NCBI GenBank assembly: GCA_964653305.1 | Contig: CAZZEV010000002.1 | Span: 1-35,843, forward strand | Direction of reading: 5' to 3' | Length of the DNA stretch: 35,843 nt | DNA from: an uncultured Cellvibrionaceae bacterium | GTDB lineage: Bacteria > Pseudomonadota > Gammaproteobacteria > Pseudomonadales > Cellvibrionaceae | Part shown: positions 3,233 through 31,593 of the stretch, piece after piece | Layout: each line of letters begins with the position of its first letter | Position numbering within the stretch: the stretch's first letter is position 1 | Position numbers and translations under genes: made by a program | Notes under the pieces: model-generated | Told to the model about the DNA's origin: nothing | Seen by the model: the letters and a program-made list of their open reading frames with translations, nothing else | Databases searched by the model: none

Positions 3233-4111
3233 TTGAGTGCTGAAAAACTAGGGTTGGGGACTGTGCAGTGGGGTGTTGCATATGGCATTTCCAACAAGGT
3301 GGGAAAGACGTCTCCAAGCGTTGTGACGGAGATACTCTCGTTGGCGCAAATGGCGGGTGTTAAAGTGTTGGATACGGCTTCTTTGTACGGAGAGGCCGAG
3401 GGTGTTCTGGGTGGGAACCGATTGGAGGCGTTTAAGATTGTTACCAAGACTCCTAAGTTTGAGTCGCAGTTCATTGGTCCCCATCATGTTGAGCTAATGT
3501 TAGATACTTTTTCCCGGTCACTCGAAAGGTTATCGGTAGACAGGGTTGATGGAATTTTGGTCCATAACGCGGAAGATATTTTGGTTGACGGGGGAGGGCT
3601 TCTGGTGGCGGGTATGGAGCGCTTGAGGGAGTTGGGAAAGGTTTCAAAAATTGGGGTTTCGATCTATGATGTAGGGGGCCTTGATGAACTTTTGCGGAGA
3701 TTTACGCCGAACTTGATCCAGCTACCTCTGAGTGTTTTTGATCAGCGGCTGATCCAAAGCGGCTGGCTTGATCGTCTCAGTGGCTTGGGTGTGGAAATTC
3801 ATGTTCGCTCTGTCTTTCTTCAGGGATTGTTGTTAATGCCGTTGGATAATCTACCAATTTATTTCGATCCGATTCGCCCGCTATTGGCGCGTTGGCATGC
3901 GGCAGCTAGAGAGCAGGGCATGTCACTAATTCAAGCTGCACTTGCATTTGTTCGAGATCTGCCGCAGGTTGATTGTGTGTTGGTTGGTGTCGAGTCGGTG
4001 TCTCAATTTCAGGCTTGCCTTCAAGATTTTTCTGTTCCAACGTCATTCGATGCTAAAGGGTTAGCGTGCAATGATTTGGCATTTGTAAATCCTGTATTTT
4101 GGAAAAAATAG
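3233..4111 (+). CDS. aldo/keto reductase
   Basis: KLGLGTVQWG..YG, LDTASLYGEAE, SLERL, KIGVSIY, HVRSVFLQGLL. TTG start. Confidence 0.85.
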   Translation: MSAEKLGLGTVQWGVAYGISNKVGKTSPSVVTEILSLAQMAGVKVLDTASLYGEAEGVLGGNRLEAFKIVTKTPKFESQFIGPHHVELMLDTFSRSLERLSVDRVDGILVHNAEDILVDGGGLLVAGMERLRELGKVSKIGVSIYDVGGLDELLRRFTPNLIQLPLSVFDQRLIQSGWLDRLSGLGVEIHVRSVFLQGLLLMPLDNLPIYFDPIRPLLARWHAAAREQGMSLIQAALAFVRDLPQVDCVLVGVESVSQFQACLQDFSVPTSFDAKGLACNDLAFVNPVFWKK

Positions 4112-5007
4112 AAAAGCCAATTCAATTAGGTTTAATTGGAATGTCTCCGGGGAACGGGCATCCCTATTCGTGGGGGGCGATTTTTAACGGTTACGATCCA
4201 GTTCAGATGGAGAAATGTGGTTTCCCTGTTATACCGAGATACCTGCAGCAGCAATCGTTTCCTGAGGCAGCAATAGGGGGGGCAAATGTTACGCATGTAT
4301 GGGCTCAGGAACGAGGGATGGCAGACCAAATATCCAGGTCAGCATTGATTCCAAAGGTGGTTGATAACTTTACTGACATGATAGGTCATGTCGACGGCCT
4401 GTTACTGGCACGTGATGATGCAGAGATGCACCTCCATTTTGCGGCTCCTTTTCTCGATGCCGGGATTCCTATATACATCGATAAGCCATTGGCGCTTTCA
4501 GTTGACGAAGCTCAGAAGCTGATCGACCGACAGCGCTTCCCAGGTCAGCTATTTTCTTGTTCGGCGTTGAAGTACGCCAAAGAATTGATCCTAATAGATG
4601 AGGACTTGGCGAGATTAGGGATGATTCGCTATGCTGCTGCAACTGTGCCCAAAGATTGGGATAAATATGCAATTCATGCTATTGATCCAATATTGCAGCT
4701 TGTCGGTGACCGCGGTGACTTGATTGGAACACGTGCATCAAGCGATGGAGGTTTCTTCAGTCTAAGCGCTACGTATAGTGATGACTTTCATCTCAGGATC
4801 ACCGCGCTTGGAAAGGTTCCAGCCCCAATTTCAATTACAGTTTTCGGTGAGCTAAGTTGGAAGGAGCTCGTTTTTAGAGATTCATTTAATGCATTCAAAT
4901 TTGCACTGAAAGATTTCGTGGATGGGATACGCAACCACGACGTCCGTACCAAGCCGCAGGAGATGCTGAACGCAATCCGACTTGTAGAGGCGGGAAGAGT
5001 ATTTTGA
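4099..5007 (+). CDS. Gfo/Idh/MocA-like NAD(P)-dependent oxidoreductase
   Basis: N-terminal LGLIG Rossmann strand, H..FAAPFLDAGIPIYIDKPLA (EKP-like motif) and YAIHAID. Overlaps both neighbours. Confidence 0.72.
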   Translation: MEKIEKPIQLGLIGMSPGNGHPYSWGAIFNGYDPVQMEKCGFPVIPRYLQQQSFPEAAIGGANVTHVWAQERGMADQISRSALIPKVVDNFTDMIGHVDGLLLARDDAEMHLHFAAPFLDAGIPIYIDKPLALSVDEAQKLIDRQRFPGQLFSCSALKYAKELILIDEDLARLGMIRYAAATVPKDWDKYAIHAIDPILQLVGDRGDLIGTRASSDGGFFSLSATYSDDFHLRITALGKVPAPISITVFGELSWKELVFRDSFNAFKFALKDFVDGIRNHDVRTKPQEMLNAIRLVEAGRVF

Positions 5008-5768
5008 TGGCTACAAGAACTATTTTATTAACCGGCGCTACCGGCAAATTCGGTAAAGTACTAACTCGGCATTTTGTCAGTGCAGGGGATACGGTAATAG
5101 GAGTGTCTCGATCGTCAGAGTCTTTGGACTGCTTGAGCAAGATGTTGGATGGATGTGGCAATCGTTTCACTGGTATAGCGTCGGATCTTACGGCTGAAGG
5201 GGGGGTTGCAAGGCTTTTAGACGAGTTAGCATCTCGCTCCATTAATCCGGATTGTCTGATTAATAATGCGCGCAATATCAACTACCTTAAGGTGCAGAAT
5301 AATGGTATAGTCAGTCGTGAAAACTTCGCAAAAGAGTATGTTCTGGATGTTGTAGTTCCCTATGAGTTGACAATGCTGCTCGCCAAGCAGTCTGATGCGC
5401 GTCTATCGAGGGTCGTAAATATAGGATCGCAGTATGGTAGCGTCGCTGCAAATCCTTCCCTGTATGACGATCCTGAGCGGCAATCTCCAATCCACTACAG
5501 CGTTGCCAAGGCGGCATTGGTTCATTTGACGCGTGAGATGGCGGTGCGCTTAGCTAAGCAGAAGGTGCAGGTAAATTGCGTAGCATTTGGAGGTGTCGAG
5601 GGTAGAGTCGATGAAGCCTTCATGCATAGGTATGCGAAATTGTGTCCAATGGGGCGTATGCTTAGTGAGGATGAGTTGGCTGGGCCCGTAGACATTCTTC
5701 TTTCACAATACAGCAATGGCATAACCGGGCATACCTTAATGGCTGACGGTGGTTGGAGTTTGTGGTGA
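5007..5768 (+). CDS. short-chain dehydrogenase/reductase (SDR)
   Basis: TGATGKFG, LINNA, NIGSQYG, YSVAK (YxxxK), VNCV, ITGHTLMADGG. TGATG coupling with the upstream gene. Confidence 0.9.
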   Translation: MATRTILLTGATGKFGKVLTRHFVSAGDTVIGVSRSSESLDCLSKMLDGCGNRFTGIASDLTAEGGVARLLDELASRSINPDCLINNARNINYLKVQNNGIVSRENFAKEYVLDVVVPYELTMLLAKQSDARLSRVVNIGSQYGSVAANPSLYDDPERQSPIHYSVAKAALVHLTREMAVRLAKQKVQVNCVAFGGVEGRVDEAFMHRYAKLCPMGRMLSEDELAGPVDILLSQYSNGITGHTLMADGGWSLW

Positions 5769-6689: not shown

Positions 6690-7088
6690 ATGAAAAATTG
6701 TGAGAGACGGCAAGATCGTGATTTCGGACTATTTTTTAGCGCACTGTTTATGCTGCTTTCAGCATACTCAACTTACCGAAGTGCGGGTATAGCCCAAATT
6801 GCTGGGTTCCTTATTTTGGGACTAATTATCGGGTTTATTGCCGTTGTTGCCCCGGTTTTCTTGAATCCATTCAGCAAAGCTTGGATGAAGTTAGGCGAAA
6901 TTATGGGGAAAATCTCAAGCCCACTTGTATTGGGTGTAATCTACTTCGTGCTAATTACACCAATTTCATTGTTATTTCAGATATTTGGCCGCGATGCCCT
7001 ACGTCTGAAGAAAGAAAATGTAAATTCCTACTGGATAGACCGGGTGCCACCAGATATCTCCAAGGACTCTTTTAAAAATCAATTTTAA
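6690..7088 (+). CDS. SxtJ-family small membrane protein
   Basis: DRDFG start, two TM helices, WMKLGEIMGKISSPLVLGVIYFVLITPI, GRDAL, SYWI, C-terminal QF. This is the layout I recognise for SxtJ homologs, and it is next to a carbamoyltransferase. Confidence 0.8.
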   Translation: MKNCERRQDRDFGLFFSALFMLLSAYSTYRSAGIAQIAGFLILGLIIGFIAVVAPVFLNPFSKAWMKLGEIMGKISSPLVLGVIYFVLITPISLLFQIFGRDALRLKKENVNSYWIDRVPPDISKDSFKNQF

Positions 7089-7095
7089 GAAATAT

Positions 7096-7245
7096 ATGGA
7101 TTTCATCAAAGAATTATGGAAATTTTTGCGAGCACGTAAAAAACTTTGGCAGTTACCCATAATTGTTATCATTGTGTTGTTTGGGGTCCTACTTTTTGCA
7201 GCCCAAGGAACAGTCATTGCGCCATTTGTATATACATTGTTCTAA
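7096..7245 (+). CDS. 49-aa single-TM peptide, SxtK/DUF5989-like, with C-terminal FVYTLF motif (absent from the ORF track)
   Basis: Manual translation: MDFIKELWKFLRARKKLWQLPIIVIIVLFGVLLFAAQGTVIAPFVYTLF*. It fills the gap between the SxtJ-like gene and the carbamoyltransferase. Confidence 0.88.
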   Translation: MDFIKELWKFLRARKKLWQLPIIVIIVLFGVLLFAAQGTVIAPFVYTLF

Positions 7246-7254
7246 ATTTATTTT

Positions 7255-9090
7255 ATGAAAATACTAGGACTTTCCGCCTACTATCACGACTCGGCGGCCT
7301 GCTTGGTTATTGATGGGGAAATTGTTGCAGCAGTACAGGAAGAGCGATTCACGCGAAAGAAGCATGATGCTGGATTTCCAGCTCATTCAATTAACTACTG
7401 CCTGCAGGAGGCAAAGATCAAAGCTGCGGATCTAGATTCTGTGGTTTTTTACGACAAGCCTTTCCTTAAATTCGACCGTTTGTTAGAGACTTACTTGGCA
7501 TACGCTCCGAAGGGTTTCGAAAGTTTTGCTGCCTCGTTACCTTTGTGGGCTAAGGACAAGTTATTCCAAAAGATGGTGCTGGTAAATGATTTGAAAAACG
7601 TAATTGATGCGAGAGTGGATTGGATGTCAAAAATGTTGTTCTCTGAGCACCATCTGAGCCACGCGTCTTCAGCCTTCTTTCCCTCGCCGTTTGAAGATGC
7701 TGCTGTATTGACAATGGATGGCGTTGGTGAATGGACAACGACTTCAGTCGCAATAGGTGCAGCAAATCAGCTATCAATTCAAAAAGAAATTCATTTTCCG
7801 CATTCTCTGGGCCTCTTGTATTCTGCTTTTACTTATTATACGGGTTTTAAGGTTAACTCGGGTGAATATAAAGTGATGGGGTTAGCAGCTTACGGTGAAC
7901 CCAGATACGCACAACATATAAAAGAACATTTAATCGACATAAAAGAGGATGGTTCTTTTCATCTTGACATGCAGTATTTTAATTACTGCACTAGTCAGAC
8001 TATGACAAACGATAGGTTCGCCGATATCTTTGGTGGTCCACCGCGGAAGAAAGAGGGCATCCTTACACAACGGGATATGGATCTCGCTGCATCTGTTCAA
8101 TCAGTGACGGAAGAGGTCATGATTAAGCTTGCTAAGGGTATTAGAAAATCGACAGGGCAGAAGAACTTGTGTCTAGCAGGAGGTGTGGCTTTAAATTGCG
8201 TTGCGAATGGAAAACTCTTGCGCGAAAATATTTTTGAAAATATATGGATTCAGCCTGCGTCAGGAGATGCAGGTGGAGCAATAGGTGCGGCACTGGCAGC
8301 TTATTACATGATGTTGGAAAAACCGCGAACGGTAAACACATTGGATTCGATGAAGGGGTCGTACCTTGGTCCTGATTTCAAACAGAGTGATATTGAGGAG
8401 CGGCTAAGAGCATTTGGCGCCGTCTATAGCGTATCAGACGAAGAGTCCGTGATATCCGAGACGGCGCTTGCGCTTGCTAAGGGTAGGGCTGTAGGTTGGC
8501 ACCAAGGCCGAATGGAGTTCGGTCCGCGGGCCTTAGGTGGTCGTTCGATCTTGGCCGATCCGCGTGCGCCATGGGTTCAAAAACAACTAAACCTGAAGGT
8601 GAAATACCGTGAGTCATTTAGGCCCTTTGCTCCAAGCATACTCCGCGAGCATGTGGAGGAATGGTTCGATCTTAACTGTGACAGCCCGTACATGCAAATA
8701 GTCGCTTATCTACAAAAGGATAAGCGTATTGAGATGACAAAAGAGCAGCAGCGGTTGTTCGGAATCGATAAGTTGAACGTGCCTCGTTCCGAAATACCGG
8801 CGGTTACTCACGTTGATTACTCTGCACGTATTCAGACAGTGCATGAAACAACCAACCAAAAATTTTACAGGTTAATCAAAAAATTTCACGAATTGACGGG
8901 TTGTCCTGTGCTTGTAAACACATCGTTTAATGTGCGTGGAGAGCCAATAGTGAATACTCCTGAGGATGCTTTCCGTTGCATGATGGGAACGGAGTTGGAT
9001 TTCTTAGTAGTTGGAAATTGTATTCTTCGTAAAGAAGAGCAAAATTCAAAATTAATGGAAAATTATAAAGACTCATATGAGCTCGATTAA
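7255..9090 (+). CDS. O-carbamoyltransferase, NodU/CmcH/TobZ/SxtI family
   Basis: HDSAA, EERFTRKKH, EHHLSHA, DGVGE, GGVALNCVAN, MEFGPRALGGRS, NLKVKYRESFRPFAP, PAVTHVDYSARIQTV, NTSFN. Confidence 0.95.
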   Translation: MKILGLSAYYHDSAACLVIDGEIVAAVQEERFTRKKHDAGFPAHSINYCLQEAKIKAADLDSVVFYDKPFLKFDRLLETYLAYAPKGFESFAASLPLWAKDKLFQKMVLVNDLKNVIDARVDWMSKMLFSEHHLSHASSAFFPSPFEDAAVLTMDGVGEWTTTSVAIGAANQLSIQKEIHFPHSLGLLYSAFTYYTGFKVNSGEYKVMGLAAYGEPRYAQHIKEHLIDIKEDGSFHLDMQYFNYCTSQTMTNDRFADIFGGPPRKKEGILTQRDMDLAASVQSVTEEVMIKLAKGIRKSTGQKNLCLAGGVALNCVANGKLLRENIFENIWIQPASGDAGGAIGAALAAYYMMLEKPRTVNTLDSMKGSYLGPDFKQSDIEERLRAFGAVYSVSDEESVISETALALAKGRAVGWHQGRMEFGPRALGGRSILADPRAPWVQKQLNLKVKYRESFRPFAPSILREHVEEWFDLNCDSPYMQIVAYLQKDKRIEMTKEQQRLFGIDKLNVPRSEIPAVTHVDYSARIQTVHETTNQKFYRLIKKFHELTGCPVLVNTSFNVRGEPIVNTPEDAFRCMMGTELDFLVVGNCILRKEEQNSKLMENYKDSYELD

Positions 9091-9180
9091 TTTTTTTAGT
9101 CAATTAAAGTTATTTCATGTAGATGGAGTTAGATAGTATGCTGCATACCAGATTAAACTATCTTAACAAGAAGTGATATT

Positions 9181-10257
9181 ATGAAGCGTAAATTAATAAT
9201 CGGTTTGACAATAATGATTGCTGTGGGCGTGGCTGTAGGGATTTACAAAAAAATAAGATATAGATTTGCGGAGTATGAAGAAAATCAAAAGGTTTGGGGG
9301 CTTGTCCCTGAGATGAAGAAATTTGATATGACTGAATTAAGGGGTTCTTGGCCAAAGTATCAGTATGATGTCGATACTGTATTCTCCGAAAAAGCACAAG
9401 CAACTAAATACATTAACATCACAGCCTCGGGGGAAAGGGTCTCATTTGAAAATAGTGGATCTGCTGAGGTAATAATGGTTGGTGGCTCTACAATGTTTGG
9501 GTATGGAGTTCCCGATGATTATACTATCCCGTCTATGTTTAATAAAGCACAGGGTAAATATCATGCGGTTAATTATGGAAGGGGTGGTTATTACTCAGAG
9601 CTTGAAACAAAATTAATACTAAAACTTCTAAGATTAGGTAAAAGACCTGCTGAAATAATTATCCTTGACGGACTGAATGATGGTAAAAAAAATCCATTAT
9701 ATTCAAATGAACTCAGCTTTTTATTCGATTCTTTTAACTATAATAAATATAATTACTTCCTTGCTGGGGTGGGGAGTGTAATGCCTTTGATAAAGCCAAG
9801 AAGCATTGGCATCTATGAAAATCCGAGTTATTATCATGATTTAAATCTCTGGTTTGATTCGTATTTGGATAATATCTCGCAAGTCGCACATCTACAGAAG
9901 GCGTATAAATTTAAAGTAAATGTATTTATCCAGCCCATTCCTGGATTTGATAATGAATTCGCGAAGCATGCTTTACTAATTAATGTTCCGTCTGATTTTC
10001 ACGATTATCAATTTGAGAAATATAAAGTAATAAAAAAAAGAATTGGGGAATTAAAGAAAATTGCAAATGTATGTGATTTATCTGGGTTGTTTTCTGGGTA
10101 TGTGCCTTTTCCGTTTGTCGATGGTACGCATTATACGCCGACAGTAAATGCAATAATAGCAAAACGCATGCTGAAATTCATGGAGCTTGGTGTTTGCGAT
10201 GCTAGTAATACTAAACAAGAGATTGCCCCTGAAATTGCGGCTAAGCTTGGAATTTAA
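9181..10257 (+). CDS. membrane-anchored SGNH/GDSL-fold protein (putative extracytoplasmic acyl/carbamoyl transferase or hydrolase)
   Basis: N-terminal basic residues plus TM (MKRKLIIGLTIMIAVGVAVGIY). Block I MVGGSTMFG, block II NYGRGGY, block III ILDGLND, block V DGTHY. Confidence 0.8.
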   Translation: MKRKLIIGLTIMIAVGVAVGIYKKIRYRFAEYEENQKVWGLVPEMKKFDMTELRGSWPKYQYDVDTVFSEKAQATKYINITASGERVSFENSGSAEVIMVGGSTMFGYGVPDDYTIPSMFNKAQGKYHAVNYGRGGYYSELETKLILKLLRLGKRPAEIIILDGLNDGKKNPLYSNELSFLFDSFNYNKYNYFLAGVGSVMPLIKPRSIGIYENPSYYHDLNLWFDSYLDNISQVAHLQKAYKFKVNVFIQPIPGFDNEFAKHALLINVPSDFHDYQFEKYKVIKKRIGELKKIANVCDLSGLFSGYVPFPFVDGTHYTPTVNAIIAKRMLKFMELGVCDASNTKQEIAPEIAAKLGI

Positions 10258-12079: not shown

Positions 12080-12757
12080 CTGAAGAAGCAGTACATTTTT
12101 GCGAGTTGCAAGCGCTGGCATCTTCCTTTACTTGAGCAACTGAAAATAGATGTCGCGGCAAACTGGACATATGTTTCTGATAACATGGAATTAGAAGATG
12201 CCCTCGCCAGCACTAATCCAAAATATATTTTCTTTCTACATTGGAACTGGATAGTCCCTGAGAAAATTTGGAGCGCATACGAATGCGTATGCTTTCACAT
12301 GACAGATGTCCCATACGGACGCGGAGGTAGTCCTCTGCAGAACCTGATTCTTGCTGGTTATACACAAACCATGCTTACTGCGCTTCGAATGGTTGAGGAA
12401 ATGGATGCAGGGCCCGTTTATACAAAGAAACCCCTCAGCCTAGATGGATCAGCCGAAGAAATATATCTCCGGGCTGGCAAGCTGAGCATTGAAATAATTA
12501 AATGGATGCTTGATCATAAGCCACAACCTAAACCACAGAAAGGTGAGGTTGTTATTTTTAAGCGTCGCAGGCCTGAACAAAGTAACCTGCCAAATGTCGG
12601 AAATCTAAAAAATGCATTCGATTTTATTCGAATGCTGGATGCAAATGGATACCCGTCCGCTTTCGTTGAATACGGTAACTATCTAATGAATTTTAAAAAA
12701 GCAAAACTTGATGGTGATCGGATTGTAGCCGAAGTTGAAATCAAAATCCAAAAATAA
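12080..12757 (+). CDS. N-formyltransferase (methionyl-tRNA formyltransferase-like); start uncertain
   Basis: FFLHWNWIVP, CVCFHMTDVPYGRGGSPLQNLI, MDAGPVY, DFIRMLDA.GYP.AF. The frame is open back to 12059 and encodes a plausible N-terminus (QYIFASCKRWH). There is a CTG at 12080 with an AAGGAG SD; the first ATG is only at 12185. Confidence 0.82.
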   Translation: MKKQYIFASCKRWHLPLLEQLKIDVAANWTYVSDNMELEDALASTNPKYIFFLHWNWIVPEKIWSAYECVCFHMTDVPYGRGGSPLQNLILAGYTQTMLTALRMVEEMDAGPVYTKKPLSLDGSAEEIYLRAGKLSIEIIKWMLDHKPQPKPQKGEVVIFKRRRPEQSNLPNVGNLKNAFDFIRMLDANGYPSAFVEYGNYLMNFKKAKLDGDRIVAEVEIKIQK

Positions 12758-12777
12758 TACTTAAGCGAAAAATAGAA

Positions 12778-13824
12778 ATGAATATTACTATCAACGGCCG
12801 AGAAATTGGCCCTAATTCTCCGCCGTATATAATTGCCGAGCTTTCAGCAAACCACAACGGAAACATTGAGCGTGCTTTCGAGACAATTAAAGCTGCGCGC
12901 GATCAAGGTGCTGACGCAATCAAGATTCAGACCTACACCGCAGACACAATGACGATTGACTGCGAGAGTGAAGAATTTATGATTCGCGGGGGATTATGGG
13001 ACGGGTTTAAGCTCTACGATTTATATAAATGGGCTGAAACACCGTTTGAATGGCATCAGGCTATTTTCGATTATGCTAAAAGTATAGGAATGACTATATT
13101 CTCTACACCTTTTGATGAATCGGCTGTAGATCTTCTCGAGTCTCTCAATGTCCCTGCGTACAAAATTGCTTCGTTTGAAGCGACAGACTTACCCTTGATT
13201 CGCTATGTCGCGAGCAAAGGCAAGCCAATGATTATGTCAACTGGCATGTGCACGGAGCAGGAAATCGCTGAAGCTGTGAACACGGCGCGTGCCAGCGGTT
13301 GCAAGGAGCTGGTCCTGCTTCATTGCATTAGCAGTTATCCTGCGCCAATGGACCAGGCAAACCTGCTGCAAATGCCGAACCTCGCAGCAAAATTTAAAAG
13401 CATACCCGGTCTATCTGATCATACGTTAGGTACCACGGCTTCCGTTGCTGCTGTGGCACTTGGAGCATGTGTAATCGAAAAGCACTTTACATTAAGCCGC
13501 CAAGATAAGGGGCCGGATAGCGAATTCTCTATAGAACCAGATGAAATGATACGGTTATGCCAAGATACACGAGATGCATGGTCTGCGCTTGGCTGTGCAA
13601 CTTTTGAGCGCCAGCAGGTAGAAGAAGCAAGTAAGCGATATCGACGATCCGTCTATTTTGTCAAGGACATGATAGCGGGGCAGAAGATTACCGAGGCAGA
13701 TATCCGTAGGATTAGGCCGGGCTATGGCCTAGCGCCTAAGAATTTCGAAAAGTTGCTGGGCAGAACAATGCGAGAAAATGTAAAACGAGGTACGGCAGTC
13801 AACTGGGCGCATATCAATGACTAA
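12778..13824 (+). CDS. pseI: pseudaminic acid synthase (NeuB family with C-terminal SAF domain)
   Basis: PYIIAELSANHNG, KIQTYTADTMT, YKIASFE, LLHCISSYPAP, GLSDHTLG, IEKHFTL, RIRPGYGLAP. Confidence 0.95.
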   Translation: MNITINGREIGPNSPPYIIAELSANHNGNIERAFETIKAARDQGADAIKIQTYTADTMTIDCESEEFMIRGGLWDGFKLYDLYKWAETPFEWHQAIFDYAKSIGMTIFSTPFDESAVDLLESLNVPAYKIASFEATDLPLIRYVASKGKPMIMSTGMCTEQEIAEAVNTARASGCKELVLLHCISSYPAPMDQANLLQMPNLAAKFKSIPGLSDHTLGTTASVAAVALGACVIEKHFTLSRQDKGPDSEFSIEPDEMIRLCQDTRDAWSALGCATFERQQVEEASKRYRRSVYFVKDMIAGQKITEADIRRIRPGYGLAPKNFEKLLGRTMRENVKRGTAVNWAHIND

Positions 13825-14491
13825 AATCGTACTGGTTATTGCAGCTCATGCAGATGATGAAGTGCTTGGATGCGGAGGGACAATATCACGTCATGTAGGC
13901 GAAGGTGACATTGTATATACAGTAATTATGGCCGATGGCGTTAGTTCTCGTAAAGAAAATGATAGAAAAGAAATACTAGATCGTACCGCAGCAGCAGAGC
14001 GTGCGCGCGAAATCCTTGGAGTTAAAAAAAATTATTATCTAGAATTTCCCGATAACAAAATGGATAGTATTTGTATGCTCGAAATCATACAGAGACTTGA
14101 GTCTATTGTAGAGGAAATTAGACCAAATATTATTTATACCCATCATCGAGGCGATTTAAATGTTGATCACGTCGTAACACATCAAGCTGTTTTAACGGCA
14201 TGTAGGCCGATTCCCGGAAGTTGCGTTGAAGCAATCTATGCATTTGAAATCATGTCGAGTACGGAATGGGCAGCGCCACAAGTTTCTCCATTTTTACCAA
14301 ATCATTATGTTGACATAACAAATTATCTTATGAAAAAGAGAAGCGCATTGCAGGAATATAATATCGAAATGCGTGAGCAACCGCATTCGAGAAGTATTCA
14401 AAATTTGATGGCACTAGCGCATTTTCGTGGTAATACAATGGGAGTGAATTCTGCGGAGGCATTCATTACCATAAGGACTATAAAAAAATAG
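13817..14491 (+). CDS. PIG-L/LmbE-family N-deacetylase
   Basis: AAHADDEVLGCGG, FPDN, THHRGDLNVDH, SSTEW, AEAF. Confidence 0.9.
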   Translation: MTKIVLVIAAHADDEVLGCGGTISRHVGEGDIVYTVIMADGVSSRKENDRKEILDRTAAAERAREILGVKKNYYLEFPDNKMDSICMLEIIQRLESIVEEIRPNIIYTHHRGDLNVDHVVTHQAVLTACRPIPGSCVEAIYAFEIMSSTEWAAPQVSPFLPNHYVDITNYLMKKRSALQEYNIEMREQPHSRSIQNLMALAHFRGNTMGVNSAEAFITIRTIKK

Positions 14492-14510: not shown

Positions 14511-15740
14511 ATGAGGAAAGGTGATTATATTTATATAATTTATAGAAAATGGAATTTTGAGCCATTCAAATATGCTCTAGGAACTGATAATGTCAAATAT
14601 ATACATGAGATGGACTTAGAGGGTAAACGCGACGATTCTCAGAAACAGTTAGATGGCAAAGAGGTGGAATCCATTATAATGGGTTGTAGGTTGCTGAGGA
14701 ACTTGAATTATGAAGAGGCTAGGCAAAAGATAAATTACGTGGCAGATCAATGGATTAACTTAATGAACATTGAAAGACCAAAATTAGTAATATCTGTAAC
14801 AGTTGACAATTATATATTAGATGTGATTGCAAGAATATGTGAGAAAAATAATATTAAATATTTGGGATTGGTAAATTCTCCGATACCTGGTTATTCTAGG
14901 CTAACAACTCGCGGTAAATTAGAGCAAGGACTTTGGGGGCCAGCACGCACCGAGATAATGGATTTTTATAGAAATAGGCGAAAACCCTCGCACTATGAAG
15001 AAATAAAATTTAAAGTTAAGCTGAAAAAGAGAATTGTAAATTACGCAAGGGAAAAATATTTTAAGATAAAGCATTTATTTGGGGCGAATGATTATCACAC
15101 TATAGTAAATAGCAATTGGGGATCGATCGATAAAGGATATTTAAATGGATCTATTAATGTGGAGGTAAAAGAAAAATACTTCATCCCATTGCAGTTTACG
15201 CCTGAATGCACTGTTGATTATTGGTCGCCAGTATATCCAAATAATGATTACGAGCAATTTATTTGTGATTTAATAAGCAACAATAAAAGTATTAGATTTG
15301 TTCTGAAAGAACATCCGTCATATATGGGGTATAGAAAAAAGAGCTTTATTGAATGGATTAACAAACAAGAAAATTGTGAAGTTATAAGTGTAATGGCTGA
15401 TAATTATGATTTAATATCAAAATGCAAAGCAGTTTGTACGTTGACAGGGACGGTTGGGATTGAAACTGTTATGACGGGCGGTACACTAATTATACTTGGA
15501 GATATTCCGTATTACTTGGACGGATGCAATTCAAGTATTCACATACTAGGTAACGAATTTCATCCTTCTGACGAAATTAAGGAGAGGGTAGTTGAAAATA
15601 TTTCAAAATCATTAATTCGGGGGGGGTTGAAGTTTGAAAAAAAAATTTACGGATGGCGATACAATGAAAATTTAGCAATAGATCTCTCTAAATCACTTAA
15701 TAAATATATTGAGATATACAATGAAGAAAATAAATCTTAA
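14511..15740 (+). CDS. KpsS/Capsule_synth-like protein, putative CMP-nonulosonate (pseudaminyl) transferase
   Basis: C-terminal domain has FIPLQFTPE, LKEHP and TLTGTVGIE, resembling KpsS/KpsC-like CMP-sugar transferases. AT-rich; strong AGAGG SD. Confidence 0.55.
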   Translation: MRKGDYIYIIYRKWNFEPFKYALGTDNVKYIHEMDLEGKRDDSQKQLDGKEVESIIMGCRLLRNLNYEEARQKINYVADQWINLMNIERPKLVISVTVDNYILDVIARICEKNNIKYLGLVNSPIPGYSRLTTRGKLEQGLWGPARTEIMDFYRNRRKPSHYEEIKFKVKLKKRIVNYAREKYFKIKHLFGANDYHTIVNSNWGSIDKGYLNGSINVEVKEKYFIPLQFTPECTVDYWSPVYPNNDYEQFICDLISNNKSIRFVLKEHPSYMGYRKKSFIEWINKQENCEVISVMADNYDLISKCKAVCTLTGTVGIETVMTGGTLIILGDIPYYLDGCNSSIHILGNEFHPSDEIKERVVENISKSLIRGGLKFEKKIYGWRYNENLAIDLSKSLNKYIEIYNEENKS

Positions 15741-17232
15741 AATTAGTATAGAGCAATACGCTAAAGCAGGCTTTGATATTACACAAGATGAGGAATTCCT
15801 ATATATTAAAAGCTGCATAAATATAAGAGATGAATGTTTTTATAAGATAACAGACGACGAAATAGTAATATTTGGATCAGATGAGTATGCCAAACTAATG
15901 GATTCGAATGAAACAATATTAGACTATAAAAATATAAATTATTTTATTAAGAATTATGTGTTTCCAACTGGGGAAACTGGTATAGATGGTGTCAAGAGAA
16001 TTGAGCCTAATTCAAAATATTCATTTCACAGAAAAACACTCACTATAGATTCGACGAGAATAGATATTGGAAGTGATCTGGGCCAACGAAAATACGTAAG
16101 TATAGAAATATTTGATAAAACATTTCAGACTGTTTTACATGATAAAATCAAAAAACAAGACGGGAAAAATGTTGGTGTTTTATTTAGCGGAGGTGTAGAT
16201 AGTATTTACATTGTAATTTCATTGTTAAGAATGAATATTAGACCTATTCTTTTGACTTTTAAACCATCGCCAGCATTTGATTCATCCGAGATTGACATCG
16301 TTAGATCTGAATATTGTGGAAAACTATTCGAATTGGAGCATTACTTTGTTGAAACACATATAGATAAAAATAAATTAATTTCTTACTGGAAAAATCTAAA
16401 AAGAGAAATGCCTATGGCAGTTCATACTGGAATATTTTTTGATGAATTGATACAGTTTTCAAAAATTAAAGGAATAAAAATATTAATTTCCGGTCAAAAT
16501 GCTGATACATTTTACAATTTTGGGCCTACAAGTAAGTTTAAATTTGATGTTTCGAGTATGGCAGATACATTTAGACGGTTTTTCCTAACAGATTTCATAA
16601 TCAGTGCGCTAAATCAGAATCAGAAGGGATTCATAAATAAATTGAAAAAAAATCTAGCCATTGGAACATTAAATATTGGGGCTTATGTTTATCAATTATT
16701 AAAGAAAGATGGAGCTAATTATAGAAGGCCCAGAAATGCAGAAGAAGCGTATGAGGCCTATGTCAACAGGCCAGATTATACAATATTCCCAGAAATTAAT
16801 AAGATTCAAACGGCCACTTGTGCAAAGCAAAATTTCGAATTTTATTCTGAAATCATAACGCACAAGATATATAATTTTATAACGAGTGGTGCGCCAATGG
16901 TAATTCATAATACTGCTCTTAGAAATGAAATTGAATCGATAACTCCATTTTCAGAGCGTGAGATGTTAAATTTATTTTCCCATCTGAATCGAAATATTGG
17001 AGATGTTATTTATCCAAAAAAATACATATATCGATCCATAATAAAATATAGACCTGACCTTTTAGTCAATTTAGAGAAGTTGGAAAAAGGGATAGCAGGG
17101 CCAAATTACCACAAGTGGCTAAATGATAATCTTGACTATTTCAGTACTTCAAATGATTCAATACAAGGTGGCAACTATAATTCGGCCACAAATTTCATGC
17201 GCAAGTTGGCAAATTTTTGGATTGAAAAATAA
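15721..17232 (+). CDS. asparagine-synthetase-like ATP pyrophosphatase (amide/amidine ligase) lacking the N-terminal glutaminase Cys
   Basis: PP-loop VLFSGGVDS, ISGQNADTFY (SGEGAD-like), TPF and PKK motifs. No MCG N-terminus. Confidence 0.68.
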   Translation: MKKINLKISIEQYAKAGFDITQDEEFLYIKSCINIRDECFYKITDDEIVIFGSDEYAKLMDSNETILDYKNINYFIKNYVFPTGETGIDGVKRIEPNSKYSFHRKTLTIDSTRIDIGSDLGQRKYVSIEIFDKTFQTVLHDKIKKQDGKNVGVLFSGGVDSIYIVISLLRMNIRPILLTFKPSPAFDSSEIDIVRSEYCGKLFELEHYFVETHIDKNKLISYWKNLKREMPMAVHTGIFFDELIQFSKIKGIKILISGQNADTFYNFGPTSKFKFDVSSMADTFRRFFLTDFIISALNQNQKGFINKLKKNLAIGTLNIGAYVYQLLKKDGANYRRPRNAEEAYEAYVNRPDYTIFPEINKIQTATCAKQNFEFYSEIITHKIYNFITSGAPMVIHNTALRNEIESITPFSEREMLNLFSHLNRNIGDVIYPKKYIYRSIIKYRPDLLVNLEKLEKGIAGPNYHKWLNDNLDYFSTSNDSIQGGNYNSATNFMRKLANFWIEK

Positions 17233-18537: not shown

Positions 18538-19662
18538 ATGAAACTTTGGTCAACTATAGTTAGTAAAATTTCATCAATTCGCAATTTGAAGTTAATCACA
18601 TTTGATAGGTTTTTTTTCGTATTATTTTCTATTTTTCTATCATTGAGGGTTTTTTTTATTAATTGGATTGCCGGTGCTGAGTTTTTGGGTTCATATTTCT
18701 TTCTAGTTTCATTATCTGTGCCGTTGTCTTTTATTATGGGTGGAGCAATCGAAGTTAACCTTATTTCTAAATTTGTACGATCAGAGCCTACGGCAATATT
18801 GGAAGATTACATTTGTGCGCAAAATAGCGTAATTTATTTTACTACACCTGTTTTATTATTTGGGGCTTTGTGGGCGAATTCTATGGTGCTTTATTTATTA
18901 GCTATAGCACTTGCAAATTTGTCACTTGTTTCATGCATTTCGATTTCAAGGACGTTTAGTGAGTTAAAGCTAACGAATGCTACTGGAATTCGCTTTATTT
19001 TTGTTTTTATATTTTCGTTATTAGGTGCTAAGTATGACAATATAGCTATTGTTATTTTGGGTGATTATTTTGCTTCTTTGATGATATTCAAATGGTTGCT
19101 TGCTAAGAAATTAAATATCACTTTCCCTAAAAACTTTAACCCATATAGCAAATTTTCATTTCCATATGCTGCAAATTCATTATTTCAAGGGGTTGATAAA
19201 ATAGTTCTTGGGCTCTTTTCAAGCGCAGCTGTTGGGCAGCTGGTATTAATACAATCCTTTGTATCATATGGAAGTTATTTAAATGGACTGATTAATAATT
19301 TTTTATATACATTTCGACCTAAAAATTTAAATTTTATCTCATCAATGTTCGTATTAATTAGTATTGTTTGTGCGCTATTTGTTCTTATTTTTATGCGCAG
19401 TTTGTCATTCGATCTATTTATTCCAATTCAAATTTTTCTTATATTTATATTGTCGGCGTTGAACTTTGCCGAATATGAATCCAATGCTATTGGAGTGCCT
19501 TTTACTGTAGTGTGGCAGACAATGATTCAAATTATTTCATTTTTAATGATTATTTTCATTGTGGGTTTTGATTCATATCAAAAGTTGATTGTTGCAACTC
19601 TATTTTCAGTTACTATGAAGTATTTTCATTTTCTTGTTATAAAAAGGACCAAAGATGTTTAA
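18538..19662 (+). CDS. wzx: probable O-unit flippase (short and divergent)
   Basis: Polytopic, with GAEFLGSY near the N-terminus and QGVDKIVLG..SSAAVGQL at the start of the second half, typical of PST flippases. Only 374 aa. Confidence 0.55.
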   Translation: MKLWSTIVSKISSIRNLKLITFDRFFFVLFSIFLSLRVFFINWIAGAEFLGSYFFLVSLSVPLSFIMGGAIEVNLISKFVRSEPTAILEDYICAQNSVIYFTTPVLLFGALWANSMVLYLLAIALANLSLVSCISISRTFSELKLTNATGIRFIFVFIFSLLGAKYDNIAIVILGDYFASLMIFKWLLAKKLNITFPKNFNPYSKFSFPYAANSLFQGVDKIVLGLFSSAAVGQLVLIQSFVSYGSYLNGLINNFLYTFRPKNLNFISSMFVLISIVCALFVLIFMRSLSFDLFIPIQIFLIFILSALNFAEYESNAIGVPFTVVWQTMIQIISFLMIIFIVGFDSYQKLIVATLFSVTMKYFHFLVIKRTKDV

Positions 19663-24979: not shown

Positions 24980-25897
24980 ATGCCGCAGTCAATAATGGTG
25001 ATAAATAATAGTGAGAATAAGCTTGCTGAATTTCTATCTTTGTCTGGATCGCGCGTTATAAATGTAGATAATATTTCGTGGCAAGTTTTAAACGGATTTG
25101 TAATGCCGTGCTATTTGCCGCACTGTATCCCAGATATATCATATTTCAATGCAAAAAATGCATGCAAGTTGAGTGGCAGTTTATTCGTTCGATGGACTGG
25201 TGATTTTGGTAAGACTAGATTATCCAGCTGGTGGTTTATCATATACGAGGGATATTACAGTTTAGAAAATTGTAAAAGTAAAACACGTTGGCAAGTTAAC
25301 AAGGGAAATAAGCGATTGCTCGCAAGAAAGCTAGAAGCTGAAGAGGTTCTAGCTCAGGGCTACGATGTATGCAAAAGAGCATGTGAAAGGTATGGAGATA
25401 GATCCTTCCTCGTTTCGCGGGAGCATTTCAGATTAAGGATCAATGCATCGACACAGTTTCCCGGCATTGTTGAATACTTTGGAGTTTTTAATGGTTTGCA
25501 GCTGGTCGCTCTTGCTGAGAATTTGGTTCAAGATAATGCTGTTTTTTGGGAGTCGATATGGTTCGATCCAGCAGAGCTTAAAAATCATTCAAGTTATGTT
25601 TTGACGGACTTTATGTTGAATCATTATATAAATGAGCGTAAATTTACATATGTTTCTGATGGGAGCAGGAGCATCTATCACAATACTAATTTTCAGTTAT
25701 TTCTTATTGAAAAATTCGGTTTCAAGAAGCAATATACTAAACTATACTTTTATTATAGCCCATTATTTTTTGTGCTCGTATCGTTGTTGTTCCCACTTAG
25801 AAAAGTATTTCACGCCATAGCTAGAGTCACTAGTGTAATTTTTTTAAGAAAACTTTCAAGTATTTTGCTGCAGGAGGAGATTAGGAGGGCGAATTAA
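24980..25897 (+). CDS. hypothetical protein, possibly GNAT/FemABX-like acyltransferase
   Basis: KSKTRWQVNKG helix, YFGVF..LQLVA strand, SSYVL, DGSRS..H and FLIEKFGF resemble GNAT-like/Fem folds. Assignment is by eye only. Confidence 0.45.
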   Translation: MPQSIMVINNSENKLAEFLSLSGSRVINVDNISWQVLNGFVMPCYLPHCIPDISYFNAKNACKLSGSLFVRWTGDFGKTRLSSWWFIIYEGYYSLENCKSKTRWQVNKGNKRLLARKLEAEEVLAQGYDVCKRACERYGDRSFLVSREHFRLRINASTQFPGIVEYFGVFNGLQLVALAENLVQDNAVFWESIWFDPAELKNHSSYVLTDFMLNHYINERKFTYVSDGSRSIYHNTNFQLFLIEKFGFKKQYTKLYFYYSPLFFVLVSLLFPLRKVFHAIARVTSVIFLRKLSSILLQEEIRRAN

Positions 25898-30261: not shown

Positions 30262-31593
30262 ATGGAAATAAAAATTAGTTCAATTAGGGCGTGTTGGTTG
30301 AGAGTCATGCCATTCGGGTTGGGTGTTGGAACTTTGCTGTCAATCAGTACCAACCTGCGTATGAACTTCTTTCCTGTCGGGCCTGGTGAGCTGTTGCTGG
30401 CAGCGTTCGCTGCTGTCGGAGTGTTTTACAGCAAGCCTAGGCAGCTATGGAAAATGCCTGTGGTTTTGTTTTGGCTCGTTGCATCAATCGGTATGTTGCT
30501 AGGGGCTTGGTTCGGCACACAACAAGGTGGGCTGGCAATGCACCATAAGATGGCATATGCATTTACGGCCACTGTCACGGTGGGATTGGTGGCGCTGCTG
30601 GCGGAGCTTAGTGATGCTGCTTTTCGCAGAGTTATTTACTGGATATGCACGCTTACAGCCATTAGCTTGTGGTTTGGTTTTGTAGTGTATCTCTCGGGGG
30701 ATGCTGTGCTCGCGCAAAAACTGCACATGGCCGATGCAGGTGATGTGCGTTACTCCGGGTGGTCAATCAACCCCAACCAGTTAGCGCTCTTTTTTGTTCC
30801 GTTGCCAGTGTGGTTGGCCGCTTTTTGGCGTGGTTTTGTCAAACCAACGCGTTGGCAAATGGCTGGATTTGGGTTGTTGTTGTTTGCGCTGATGCTGATG
30901 GGCCTATTGGTGCGCAGTGACGGTTTGTTTGTTGTGTGGGTGTTTGAGTTTGTGATTTTGATCGTGCTGCGCCTACGTTGGGAGAGGAGAGCCAGCCGCA
31001 TGTCGCTCTTCGGTTATGCGCTGATCATGGTGCTGTGTGTATTTTTGGTAAAAACATTTGCGCATGGCGAGGTCCGCAAGTCGGTGCGCTGCGCTGTCGA
31101 AACCTTAAGTCAAGGCGAAGGGTTCTGGTCTGCTAAGTGCTATGACGGACAAGCTTATCAAGACCAAGAGGCTTTTCGTATTGGGTTCAGCAACCCGGTA
31201 GAAAAAACGGGTGTGCGCGAAGAGCTTTGGAAGCATGGCTTGCAGTCCTGGTTGGCATCCCCTTTGGTCGGCTCTGGGCCTGGTGAGTATTCGTGGCACT
31301 ATATCGACGCCAACGGTGGGCGATCAGAAATTATGGAATCGCACAACATCACCATCGATATGCTCACACAAGGCGGTCTATTGGCTGGTGCTTCATGGTT
31401 AGCTCTAGTGTCGTACCTGCTCATACATGCTTGGCGCATTCGAGACTCTTACACTTTCAGCGTGGTGTTGATGATGGCGGCCTTCACTTTTTTTCATAAC
31501 ACGCGACAACCGTATTTTTGGTTTGTATTGGCCATGTCATACGAAGCCATACGCAGAAAGCTTTTTGTATCGAAAACAATCGACAAGGCTTGA
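30262..31593 (+). CDS. O-antigen ligase / Wzy_C-family polytopic membrane protein
   Basis: About 12 TMs, INPNQLA, large loop with R..LW..GL..W.ASPLVG.G and ESHN. Confidence 0.75.
   Translation: MEIKISSIRACWLRVMPFGLGVGTLLSISTNLRMNFFPVGPGELLLAAFAAVGVFYSKPRQLWKMPVVLFWLVASIGMLLGAWFGTQQGGLAMHHKMAYAFTATVTVGLVALLAELSDAAFRRVIYWICTLTAISLWFGFVVYLSGDAVLAQKLHMADAGDVRYSGWSINPNQLALFFVPLPVWLAAFWRGFVKPTRWQMAGFGLLLFALMLMGLLVRSDGLFVVWVFEFVILIVLRLRWERRASRMSLFGYALIMVLCVFLVKTFAHGEVRKSVRCAVETLSQGEGFWSAKCYDGQAYQDQEAFRIGFSNPVEKTGVREELWKHGLQSWLASPLVGSGPGEYSWHYIDANGGRSEIMESHNITIDMLTQGGLLAGASWLALVSYLLIHAWRIRDSYTFSVVLMMAAFTFFHNTRQPYFWFVLAMSYEAIRRKLFVSKTIDKA

What the first reader, a model, noticed from the sequence alone, without database searches (positions are those of the whole stretch)
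6690..10257. Candidate MBOAT-free trans-membrane carbamoyl relay for polysaccharide O-carbamoylation
Seen: four consecutive genes inside an O-antigen locus encode an SxtJ-like membrane protein, a 49-aa TM peptide ending FVYTLF, a cytoplasmic NodU/CmcH carbamoyltransferase, and an N-anchored SGNH protein with intact Ser...DxxH; the window has no MBOAT. Established: in the DltXABCD and AlgI/AlgJ-type envelope acylation systems an MBOAT loads an acyl group onto the Tyr of a C-terminal F-(I/L)-Y-x-x-F motif, and an extracytoplasmic SGNH-like enzyme passes it on toward the polymer. NodU/TobZ enzymes make carbamoyl-AMP in the cytoplasm. Inference: this cassette is the carbamoyl counterpart of that logic, passing carbamoyl from the transferase to the peptide Tyr, across the membrane with the SxtJ-like protein, then via the SGNH Ser to the glycan. 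I know of no described mechanism of this kind.
Basis: partly seen in the sequence, partly recalled or inferred. Interest (0 to 1): 0.92.

Follow-up and report, generated by a model that had tools for sequence, protein, structure and literature searches.

The report
Tyrosine-tail carbamoyl relay without MBOAT
Four genes in this O-antigen cluster encode a carbamoyl-activating enzyme, two small membrane proteins and a membrane-anchored esterase-fold enzyme, and the invariant tyrosine at the tip of the 49-residue protein likely carries the carbamoyl group from the first enzyme to the last, which would be an undescribed way to decorate molecules at the cell surface.

Summary
Observation confirmed: SxtJ-family protein, 49-aa DUF5989 peptide ending PFVYTLF, intact carbamoyltransferase (CT), N-anchored SGNH with intact triad; no MBOAT in the window. 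The gene set matches the published sxtI-J-K-L set, for which I found no mechanism in print. For the relay: Tyr46 is the only invariant tail residue; DUF5989 sits beside a CT in 46 of 48 hits; related SGNHs occur in 37 of 44 DUF5989 genomes versus 7 of 206 others; a model places the peptide on SxtJ and the CT (0.62, best control 0.01). New here: a related CT clade lacks SxtJ/DUF5989, carries the tyrosine tail on its own C-terminus (22 of 22) and sits beside a soluble SGNH, mirroring DltX versus PatA. Against: the model does not put Tyr46 in the CT active site; membrane crossing is unshown; only 14 of 57 related loci have glycan neighbours; SxtL and CgnD are published as (proposed or slow) hydrolases. 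Verdict: tyrosine relay likely (about 0.75), full trans-membrane version about 0.55; O-antigen acceptor unproven. This scan noted the same idea earlier on other genomes.

The parts
6690..7088 (+). SxtJ-family membrane protein (J), 132 aa; two TM helices, a basic interfacial helix, a probable re-entrant helix (79-96, invariant P91) and a basic C-tail
   Evidence: Pfam PF19588; 97-sequence alignment; hydropathy and charge profile; contacts the peptide in the model
7096..7245 (+). DUF5989 / SxtK-like microprotein (K), 49 aa: amphipathic N-helix, RARKK, hydrophobic helix, tail ending PFVYTLF
   Evidence: Pfam PF19451; present in 68 of 80 related loci; invariant K16, P21, Y46
7225..7242 (+). C-terminal F-V-Y-T-L-F hexapeptide; Tyr46 codon at 7231-7233, the proposed carbamoyl carrier
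   Evidence: sequence; 66 of 69 homologues end P-F-x-Y-x-x-F; fits the FXYXXF shuttle motif of PMC12148441
7255..9090 (+). TobZ/NodU/CmcH-type carbamoyltransferase (I, SxtI-like), 611 aa, no TM helix; H11, H132, H136, D155, D338 invariant; clade-specific C-tail (F/Y)ELD
   Evidence: Pfam; PDB hits NovN, GdmN, TobZ; alignment; C-termini
7450..7575 (+). Residues 66-107 of the carbamoyltransferase: amphipathic helices; one face (F70, F73, D74, L77) touches K in the model, the other carries K68, K72, R75, T79; aligns to acceptor-pocket helix 1 of GdmN
9181..10257 (+). N-anchored SGNH protein (L, SxtL/CgnD-like), 358 aa; S103 (9487-9489), N166, D314 (10120-10122), H317 (10129-10131)

Best explanation
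The cassette likely works as a tyrosine-shuttle carbamoyl relay: the carbamoyltransferase, predicted to be held at the inner membrane by SxtJ and the DUF5989 peptide, would pass carbamoyl from carbamoyl-AMP to the peptide's Tyr46, and the tail would then hand it to Ser103 of the probably outward-facing SGNH, which would carbamoylate an envelope acceptor, here most likely the O-antigen. Shown here: the genes, intact catalytic residues, the invariant Tyr, the co-occurrence and the fused-tail variant. Established for homologues: carbamoyl-AMP chemistry (GdmN, TobZ) and acyl-Tyr to SGNH-Ser transfer (PatA/PatB, DltX/DltD). Predicted by a model: the CT-SxtJ-peptide complex. Inferred only: carbamoyl-Tyr, movement of the tail across or through the membrane, transferase rather than hydrolase activity of the SGNH, and the acceptor.
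For: Y46 is the only invariant residue in the peptide tail across 56 sequences. The genome's own MBOAT ends in the same P-F-I-Y-x-x-F motif beside its own SGNH; PMC12148441 shows such a Tyr is acylated and donates to an SGNH. 46 of 48 DUF5989 hits lie within 4 kb of a CT. MBOAT near the cassette: 1 of 80 and 1 of 40 loci, each time with its own tail. SGNH within 6 kb: 45 of 80 loci; held-out 13 of 40 peptide-linked versus 3 of 60 unlinked CTs; genome-wide 37 of 44 versus 7 of 206 at E<=1e-15. Partner SGNHs are mostly N-in/C-out by charge, 44 of 61. Fused variant: of 25 metagenome loci found with a soluble SGNH-TPR query, 22 have an adjacent CT and all 22 have Tyr four residues from the end (17 distinct tails), versus 2 of 59 other CTs and 35 of 1409 long ORFs. 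K72 and R75 are kept in 99-100% of peptide-linked and tail-fused CTs versus 12% and 26% of 58 others, on the helix matching GdmN's acceptor-pocket helix. Complex model: 0.62, best control 0.01 (mark reached by 116 of 157 solved complexes and 2 of 215 mismatched pairs; counts hold only roughly here), runs agree in >=96% of contacts, partner pLDDT >=73.
Against: No confident contact of the peptide with CT active-site residues; the listed CT contacts are 70-77 and 95-107 only. No route across the membrane is shown. 27 of 40 held-out peptide-linked loci have no detected SGNH within 6 kb. Only 14 of 57 related loci have a clear glycan gene as nearest neighbour; a glycan-gene screen gave 11 of 43 and 7 of 25 for peptide-linked loci versus 26 of 47 for unlinked CTs. 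The nearest solved relative, CgnD, is reported as a slow leader-cleaving hydrolase, and SxtL was proposed as a decarbamoylase. The window SGNH keeps block II Gly (G133), which PatB replaces. Tail-fused CTs are one clade, so one evolutionary event; genome counts are among kin. No chemistry exists for this glycan.
Confidence: 0.55

Rival explanations
1. Direct carbamoylation: SxtJ and the peptide only anchor or activate the CT at the inner face, where it carbamoylates a lipid-linked or small acceptor like NodU/TobZ; the SGNH is a decarbamoylase or editing esterase; the Tyr tail is structural.
For: Model shows anchoring contacts and no Tyr in the active site; CT-SxtJ fusions in 2 of 80 loci; GdmN and TobZ act directly on their acceptors; published proposal for SxtL; CgnD hydrolyses slowly in vitro; SGNH not always adjacent.
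Against: Does not explain why soluble CTs without any membrane partner keep a terminal Tyr in 22 of 22 cases beside an SGNH, why the motif matches the MBOAT shuttle, or why a remover would follow the donor so closely. In Lyngbya wollei sxtL is absent together with a truncated sxtI, which fits either reading.
Confidence: 0.22
2. Tyrosine relay without full membrane crossing: the peptide is re-entrant with its tail at the inner face, and transfer to the SGNH and acceptor happens on the cytoplasmic side or within a thinned bilayer.
For: SxtJ helix 79-96 is flanked by basic segments on both sides, so probably re-entrant, and the peptide helix runs antiparallel to it; fully soluble versions exist (L122, L124); the window SGNH is basic on both sides of its anchor.
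Against: 44 of 61 anchored partner SGNHs are more basic before the helix than after, 6 the reverse; the peptide's last 32 residues are almost free of charge and its N-terminal part is basic; soluble partners lack SxtJ and the peptide, so the membrane parts need a membrane purpose.
Confidence: 0.13
3. The relay is real but the acceptor is not this O-antigen: the cassette is a mobile module that landed in a variable locus and modifies another envelope polymer, lipid or exported small molecule.
For: Most related cassettes sit among unrelated genes; similar sets occur in small-molecule clusters; present in only 1 of 24 congeners.
Against: Here it is co-oriented in the middle of the pseudaminic-acid genes, between the PseF-like and PseG genes; the SGNH gene has the low GC of the serotype-specific genes; partner SGNHs are highly divergent (16% mean column identity) as expected of acceptor-specific parts.
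Confidence: 0.1

Closest known systems
sxtI-sxtJ-sxtK-sxtL gene set of cyanobacterial saxitoxin clusters; sxtJ/K/L-like genes in the suomilide cluster
   Same: Same four gene types and similar sizes (sxtI 1839, sxtJ 405, sxtK 165, sxtL about 1280 nt); J hits the SxtJ Pfam family; I, J, K are said to work 'in conjunction'.
   Different: No mechanism or Tyr motif in the passages read; SxtL proposed as decarbamoylase; acceptor there is a small alkaloid. I did not compare the window proteins with SxtI, SxtK or SxtL sequences; DUF5989 = SxtK rests on size, synteny and recall.
DltB-DltX-DltD and PatA-PatB / AlgI-AlgJ (MBOAT-SGNH acyl-tyrosine shuttles)
   Same: C-terminal F-x-Y-x-x-F on a membrane microprotein, SGNH partner with Ser-His-Asp, and both free and loader-fused forms of the tail.
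   Different: No MBOAT; the loader would be a soluble ATP-dependent carbamoyltransferase; donor carbamoyl-AMP, not a thioester; needs SxtJ; crossing route unknown.
TobZ / NodU / GdmN / NovN O-carbamoyltransferases (class III)
   Same: Fold, metal ligands and catalytic His.
   Different: Those transfer directly to the final acceptor; this clade has amphipathic helices 66-107, an (F/Y)ELD tail and dedicated partners.
CgnD (crocagin cluster, PDB 8A2N)
   Same: Closest solved relative of the SGNH by profile (E 7e-18) and by fold; its cluster also encodes a carbamoyltransferase, CgnI.
   Different: Described as a slow leader-peptide protease; soluble; no link to CgnI proposed in the sections read.

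Membership tests
MBOAT-SGNH acyl shuttle (Dlt/Pat/Alg) | MBOAT loader in the system | tested here: not met
   None in the window; 1 of 80 and 1 of 40 related loci
MBOAT-SGNH acyl shuttle (Dlt/Pat/Alg) | C-terminal FXYXXF with invariant Tyr | tested here: met
   66 of 69; Y46 invariant
MBOAT-SGNH acyl shuttle (Dlt/Pat/Alg) | SGNH partner with Ser-His-Asp | tested here: met
   S103, D314, H317 invariant; fold; co-occurrence
MBOAT-SGNH acyl shuttle (Dlt/Pat/Alg) | SGNH domain and Tyr tail outside the cytoplasm | tested here: inconclusive
   Charge bias supports outside for 44 of 61 partners; ambiguous for the window protein; tail side not resolved
MBOAT-SGNH acyl shuttle (Dlt/Pat/Alg) | Covalent acyl-Tyr and acyl-Ser intermediates | not testable with these tools
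   Needs biochemistry
Class III O-carbamoyltransferase (TobZ/NodU/CmcH) | Kae1-like plus YrdC-like domains, metal ligands, catalytic His | tested here: met
NodU equivalog (NCBIfam NF041651) | Score above the curated cut-off | tested here: not met
   157 bits versus 1000
sxtI-J-K-L module | CT, SxtJ, about 50-aa SxtK-type peptide and GDSL/SGNH gene together | tested here: met
   Gene types and sizes
sxtI-J-K-L module | Sequence orthology to SxtI, SxtK, SxtL | not tested
   Those sequences were not fetched
Saxitoxin biosynthesis cluster | The other sxt genes around the module | tested here: not met
   All flanking window genes are glycan genes
SGNH/GDSL superfamily | Blocks I, II, III, V and flavodoxin-like fold | tested here: met

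The most novel reading that the evidence does not exclude
A third class of tyrosine-shuttle group transfer: a soluble ATP-dependent carbamoyltransferase loads a terminal tyrosine that feeds an SGNH transferase. The tail is fused to the enzyme in cytoplasmic natural-product clusters and is split off onto the membrane microprotein DUF5989, with SxtJ, when the carbamoyl group must cross the inner membrane with no MBOAT or AT3 protein. SxtJ/SxtK would gain a function, and SxtL- and CgnD-like 'hydrolases' would be carbamoyl transferases.
Probability: 0.5. Interest if true: 0.9.

Novelty: new variant of a known kind. Interest (0 to 1): 0.76.

Why it matters
PMC12148441 (Discussion) names two systems that move acyl groups to envelope polymers through a tyrosine, MBOAT-SGNH and AT3-SGNH, both with a multi-pass membrane enzyme as loader. 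This module would be a third, with a cytoplasmic loader and a carbamoyl group, found in 45 of 251 sampled genomes of the phylum and in many other phyla. It would give a testable function to two long-unexplained proteins (SxtJ, SxtK/DUF5989), reinterpret a family of SGNH proteins, and predict carbamoylated surface glycans from gene content. The soluble fused version makes the chemistry testable with two purified proteins and no membranes.

Tried and rejected
Search for longer proteins carrying the DUF5989 sequence: 12 candidates, none significant (weak evidence). AlphaFold2 of a tail-fused CT with a 42-row alignment (6 tail-bearing rows): tail pLDDT below 50, uninformative; its fold search only confirmed the CT fold. 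Profile comparisons of the peptide with the fused tail (probability 14%, E 0.002) and of membrane versus soluble SGNH families (probability 12%) are weak: homology of the tails rests on motif and context, not on these scores. Promoter and terminator scans equal shuffles. No DUF5989 in phage records. ESM Atlas gave no answer. The tailocin paper mentions carbamoyl only in figure legends. The single complex job held CT, SxtJ, AMP and the peptide; peptide-SGNH binding was not modelled (size limit 1000 residues). Rejected: that the genome's MBOAT loads this peptide (it has its own tail and SGNH); that this is a saxitoxin cluster; that the 49-codon ORF is spurious; that the cassette is generally a polysaccharide-locus module.
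Full report
OBSERVATION. The four ORFs are at the stated places. Pfam assigns SxtJ, DUF5989 and both carbamoyltransferase (CT) domains; the last ORF has no hit but is an SGNH protein: invariant G101, S103, N166, D314, H317 among 75 aligned relatives chosen from the best 150 of 2755 hits, 50 of the 75 hit Lipase_GDSL_2, and the model (pLDDT 92) matches SGNH structures, CgnD first. The CT keeps the residues that align with GdmN's catalytic His and iron ligands. The cassette lies between a PseF-like and a PseG gene in an O-antigen locus. The one MBOAT match in the 81%-complete genome is on C354; it ends in its own P-F-I-Y-x-x-F and lies beside its own SGNH-like gene. Below, J = SxtJ protein, K = DUF5989 peptide, I = CT, L = SGNH.

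WHAT IS KNOWN. The same four gene types form sxtI-J-K-L in cyanobacterial clusters; I, J and K are said to act 'in conjunction', J and K are 'unknown', and L is a proposed decarbamoylase (passages of PMC2684587, PMC2679770, PMC3037375, bioRxiv 2026.06.11.731795). sxtJ/K/L-like genes and a CT also occur in suomilide clusters (passages of PMC10157211, PMC8609519). PMC12148441 (passages and Discussion) establishes the FXYXXF acyl-tyrosine shuttle, free in DltX and fused to the loader in PatA, with no mention of carbamoyl or DUF5989. Not-in-print claim: 'DUF5989' gave 0 papers; (20 of 53 listed in the last) gave no carbamoyl-tyrosine relay. The library lacks most subscription papers; the original sxt cluster paper and the DltX paper were not held, and no supplements were read, so a remark there could have been missed.

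CONSERVATION AND CO-OCCURRENCE. In 80 loci found with I (best 80 of 199), J occurs in 73, K in 68 and an SGNH-like gene in 45, of which 43 within 1.5 kb; MBOAT in 1. Of 69 K sequences, 66 end P-F-x-Y-x-x-F, two end PFIYTFW and one is cut by the contig; in a 56-sequence alignment only K16, P21 and Y46 are invariant. Held-out control: in 251 genomes of the phylum, DUF5989 passes its cut-off in 45; 46 of the 48 non-self matches lie within 4 kb of a listed CT match (11 CT matches were unlisted). I fetched 40 of 43 K-linked and 60 of 63 unlinked CT regions, one per genome per class. With a profile trained only on the first set, SGNH genes appear in 13 of 40 versus 3 of 60, J in 35 of 40 versus 1 of 60, MBOAT in 1 of 40 versus 0 of 60; the profile missed five soluble SGNHs described below, so the unlinked count is at least 8 of 60. 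Genome-wide, a similar profile hits 37 of 44 K genomes and 7 of 206 others at E<=1e-15 (43 of 44 versus 83 of 206 at 1e-8). These genomes are kin, so no P value is given. Of 66 partner SGNHs, 61 have a TM helix; 44 are more basic before it, 11 tie, 6 after, which points to an outside domain; the window's L is ambiguous. The cassette is accessory: 1 of 24 congeners.

THE FUSED VARIANT. Five unlinked CTs (L130, L133, L136, L147, L148; one lineage, named Magnetococcales by the sources) end in a tail closely resembling K's, have no J or K, and each lies next to a roughly 700-aa soluble protein with SGNH motifs GES, GNN, DxxH; the flanks scanned are NRPS/PKS-type genes. Using only those SGNHs as query, 25 metagenome loci were found: 22 have an adjacent CT, two start at a contig edge, one has none; all 22 CTs have Tyr four residues from the end ([V/I/T]-Y-[T/S/A]-hydrophobic-x; 17 distinct tails) behind a variable linker, and none of these loci has J or K. 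The background is 2 of 59 other CTs and 35 of 1409 long ORFs of the own genome. The 24 full-length tail-fused CTs form one clade (support 1.0) placed near the K-linked clade with weak support (0.26-0.75; K group subsampled one in five, two divergent loci and C-tails left out). This repeats the DltX-versus-PatA pattern, free tail versus loader-fused tail, and is the strongest argument that the CT itself loads the tyrosine and an SGNH unloads it. It is one evolutionary origin, and profile scores between the tails are weak.

STRUCTURE. One complex job (I, J, AMP, K; K scored): 0.62, best of 3 controls 0.01; this mark was reached by 116 of 157 solved complexes and 2 of 215 mismatched pairs, counts that hold only roughly here; runs agree in at least 96% of contacts, partner pLDDT at least 73. 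It supports binding and does not show it. K's N-helix and the start of its hydrophobic helix touch I 70-77 and 95-107 and J 130-132; the helix runs antiparallel to J 80-92; tail residues 40-47 are in the interface, but no I active-site residue is listed. I 69-82 aligns to GdmN acceptor-pocket helix 1 (passages of PMC9633730). Its K-facing side is F70/F73/L77; the opposite side carries K68, K72, R75, T79, and K72/R75 are kept in 99-100% of 102 K-linked and 25 tail-type CTs (one of the 25, L064, was mislabelled) versus 12% and 26% of 58 others. Inference: a basic patch for the tail's free carboxylate; shared ancestry could also explain it. J looks like two TM helices plus a re-entrant helix, which could thin the membrane, but how Tyr46 reaches both enzymes is not shown.

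AGAINST. The acceptor is not generally a polysaccharide: 14 of 57 related K loci have a clear glycan gene among the 105 nearest neighbours scanned, and a 26-query glycan screen gave 11 of 43 and 7 of 25 for K loci against 26 of 47 for unlinked CTs. 27 of 40 held-out K loci lack a detected SGNH nearby. CgnD, L's nearest solved relative, is reported as a slow protease with no measurable binding to its substrate (PMC10070186, passages and sections 9-10). L keeps the hydrolase-type block II Gly.

MECHANISM AND ODDS. I forms carbamoyl-AMP (established for homologues); I is held on J-K (modelled); carbamoyl passes to Tyr46 (inferred, about 0.75 for a tyrosine relay of any topology); the tail reaches L Ser103 outside (inferred); L carbamoylates an envelope acceptor, here probably the O-antigen (inferred from position only). 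Full version 0.55; direct carbamoylation with L as remover 0.22; inner-face relay 0.13; other acceptor 0.10.

VERDICT. It works like the MBOAT-SGNH tyrosine shuttles but is not a member (no MBOAT); by gene content it is an sxtI-J-K-L-type module. New variant of a known kind; interest 0.76. Earlier AI notes of this scan proposed the same relay on other genomes; they are not counted as support.

Noticed in passing
L147:6043-9933, L181-L205: Soluble two-gene module in NRPS/PKS-type clusters: CT with fused terminal Tyr tail plus about 700-aa SGNH-TPR protein; 209 relatives of the SGNH found, including named Lysobacter and Dactylosporangium proteins. Products unknown.
   Followed up: yes
L122:5980-12042: CT and SxtJ without DUF5989, followed by a 1068-aa fusion of an SGNH domain with a degenerate CT, and a 61-codon Lys-rich ORF ending in a Tyr at -4.
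   Followed up: partly
L124:5994-11110: CT of the K-linked clade with a soluble CgnD-like SGNH in a small-molecule cluster (TauD, ATP-grasp), no J, K or Tyr tail found.
   Followed up: partly
window 9076-9090: K-linked CTs end in a conserved (F/Y)ELD tail with an aromatic residue at -4 (Tyr in the window); absent from unrelated CTs. Could be a plug, a docking strand or a relic of the fused tail.
   Followed up: no
window 7150-7152: The window peptide has Gln19 where at least 90% of homologues have Leu.
   Followed up: no
G000:C354:277-2771: Separate MBOAT with its own P-F-I-Y-x-x-F end beside an SGNH-like gene: a conventional acylation pair in the same genome.
   Followed up: yes
L066:5959-8262, L068:4423-6633: CT-SxtJ fusions; L066 may be a frame slip because close relatives keep the genes apart.
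   Followed up: partly
L088:7879-8320: Two tandem DUF5989 copies with slightly different tails.
   Followed up: no
L061:4344-5432: Carbamoyl-phosphate synthase small chain directly after the cassette.
   Followed up: no
L209:6794-10996: Sinorhizobium meliloti pSym carries J-K-I with a divergent SGNH gene; 28 of 31 plasmid hits are Sinorhizobium. A tractable test host.
   Followed up: partly
L210:3932-9994: Methylosinus plasmid: AMP-binding protein and a 79-aa ORF precede SGNH-J-K-I.
   Followed up: no
PDB 8A2N / crocagin cluster: CgnD, a slow 'protease', is the nearest solved relative of L and shares its cluster with the carbamoyltransferase CgnI; it might be a carbamoyl relay enzyme. CgnI's sequence was not examined.
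   Followed up: partly
window 3233-5768, 12185-14491, 15709-17232: Extra tailoring genes in the pseudaminic-acid region: aldo/keto reductase, GFO oxidoreductase, PtmA-like SDR, formyltransferase, PIG-L deacetylase, asparagine-synthase-like amidotransferase.
   Followed up: no
window 18538-19662, 24980-25897, 31518-32846: ORFs with no Pfam or NCBIfam hit; no flippase was identified in the window.
   Followed up: no
L019:5977-7829: CT split into two ORFs.
   Followed up: no
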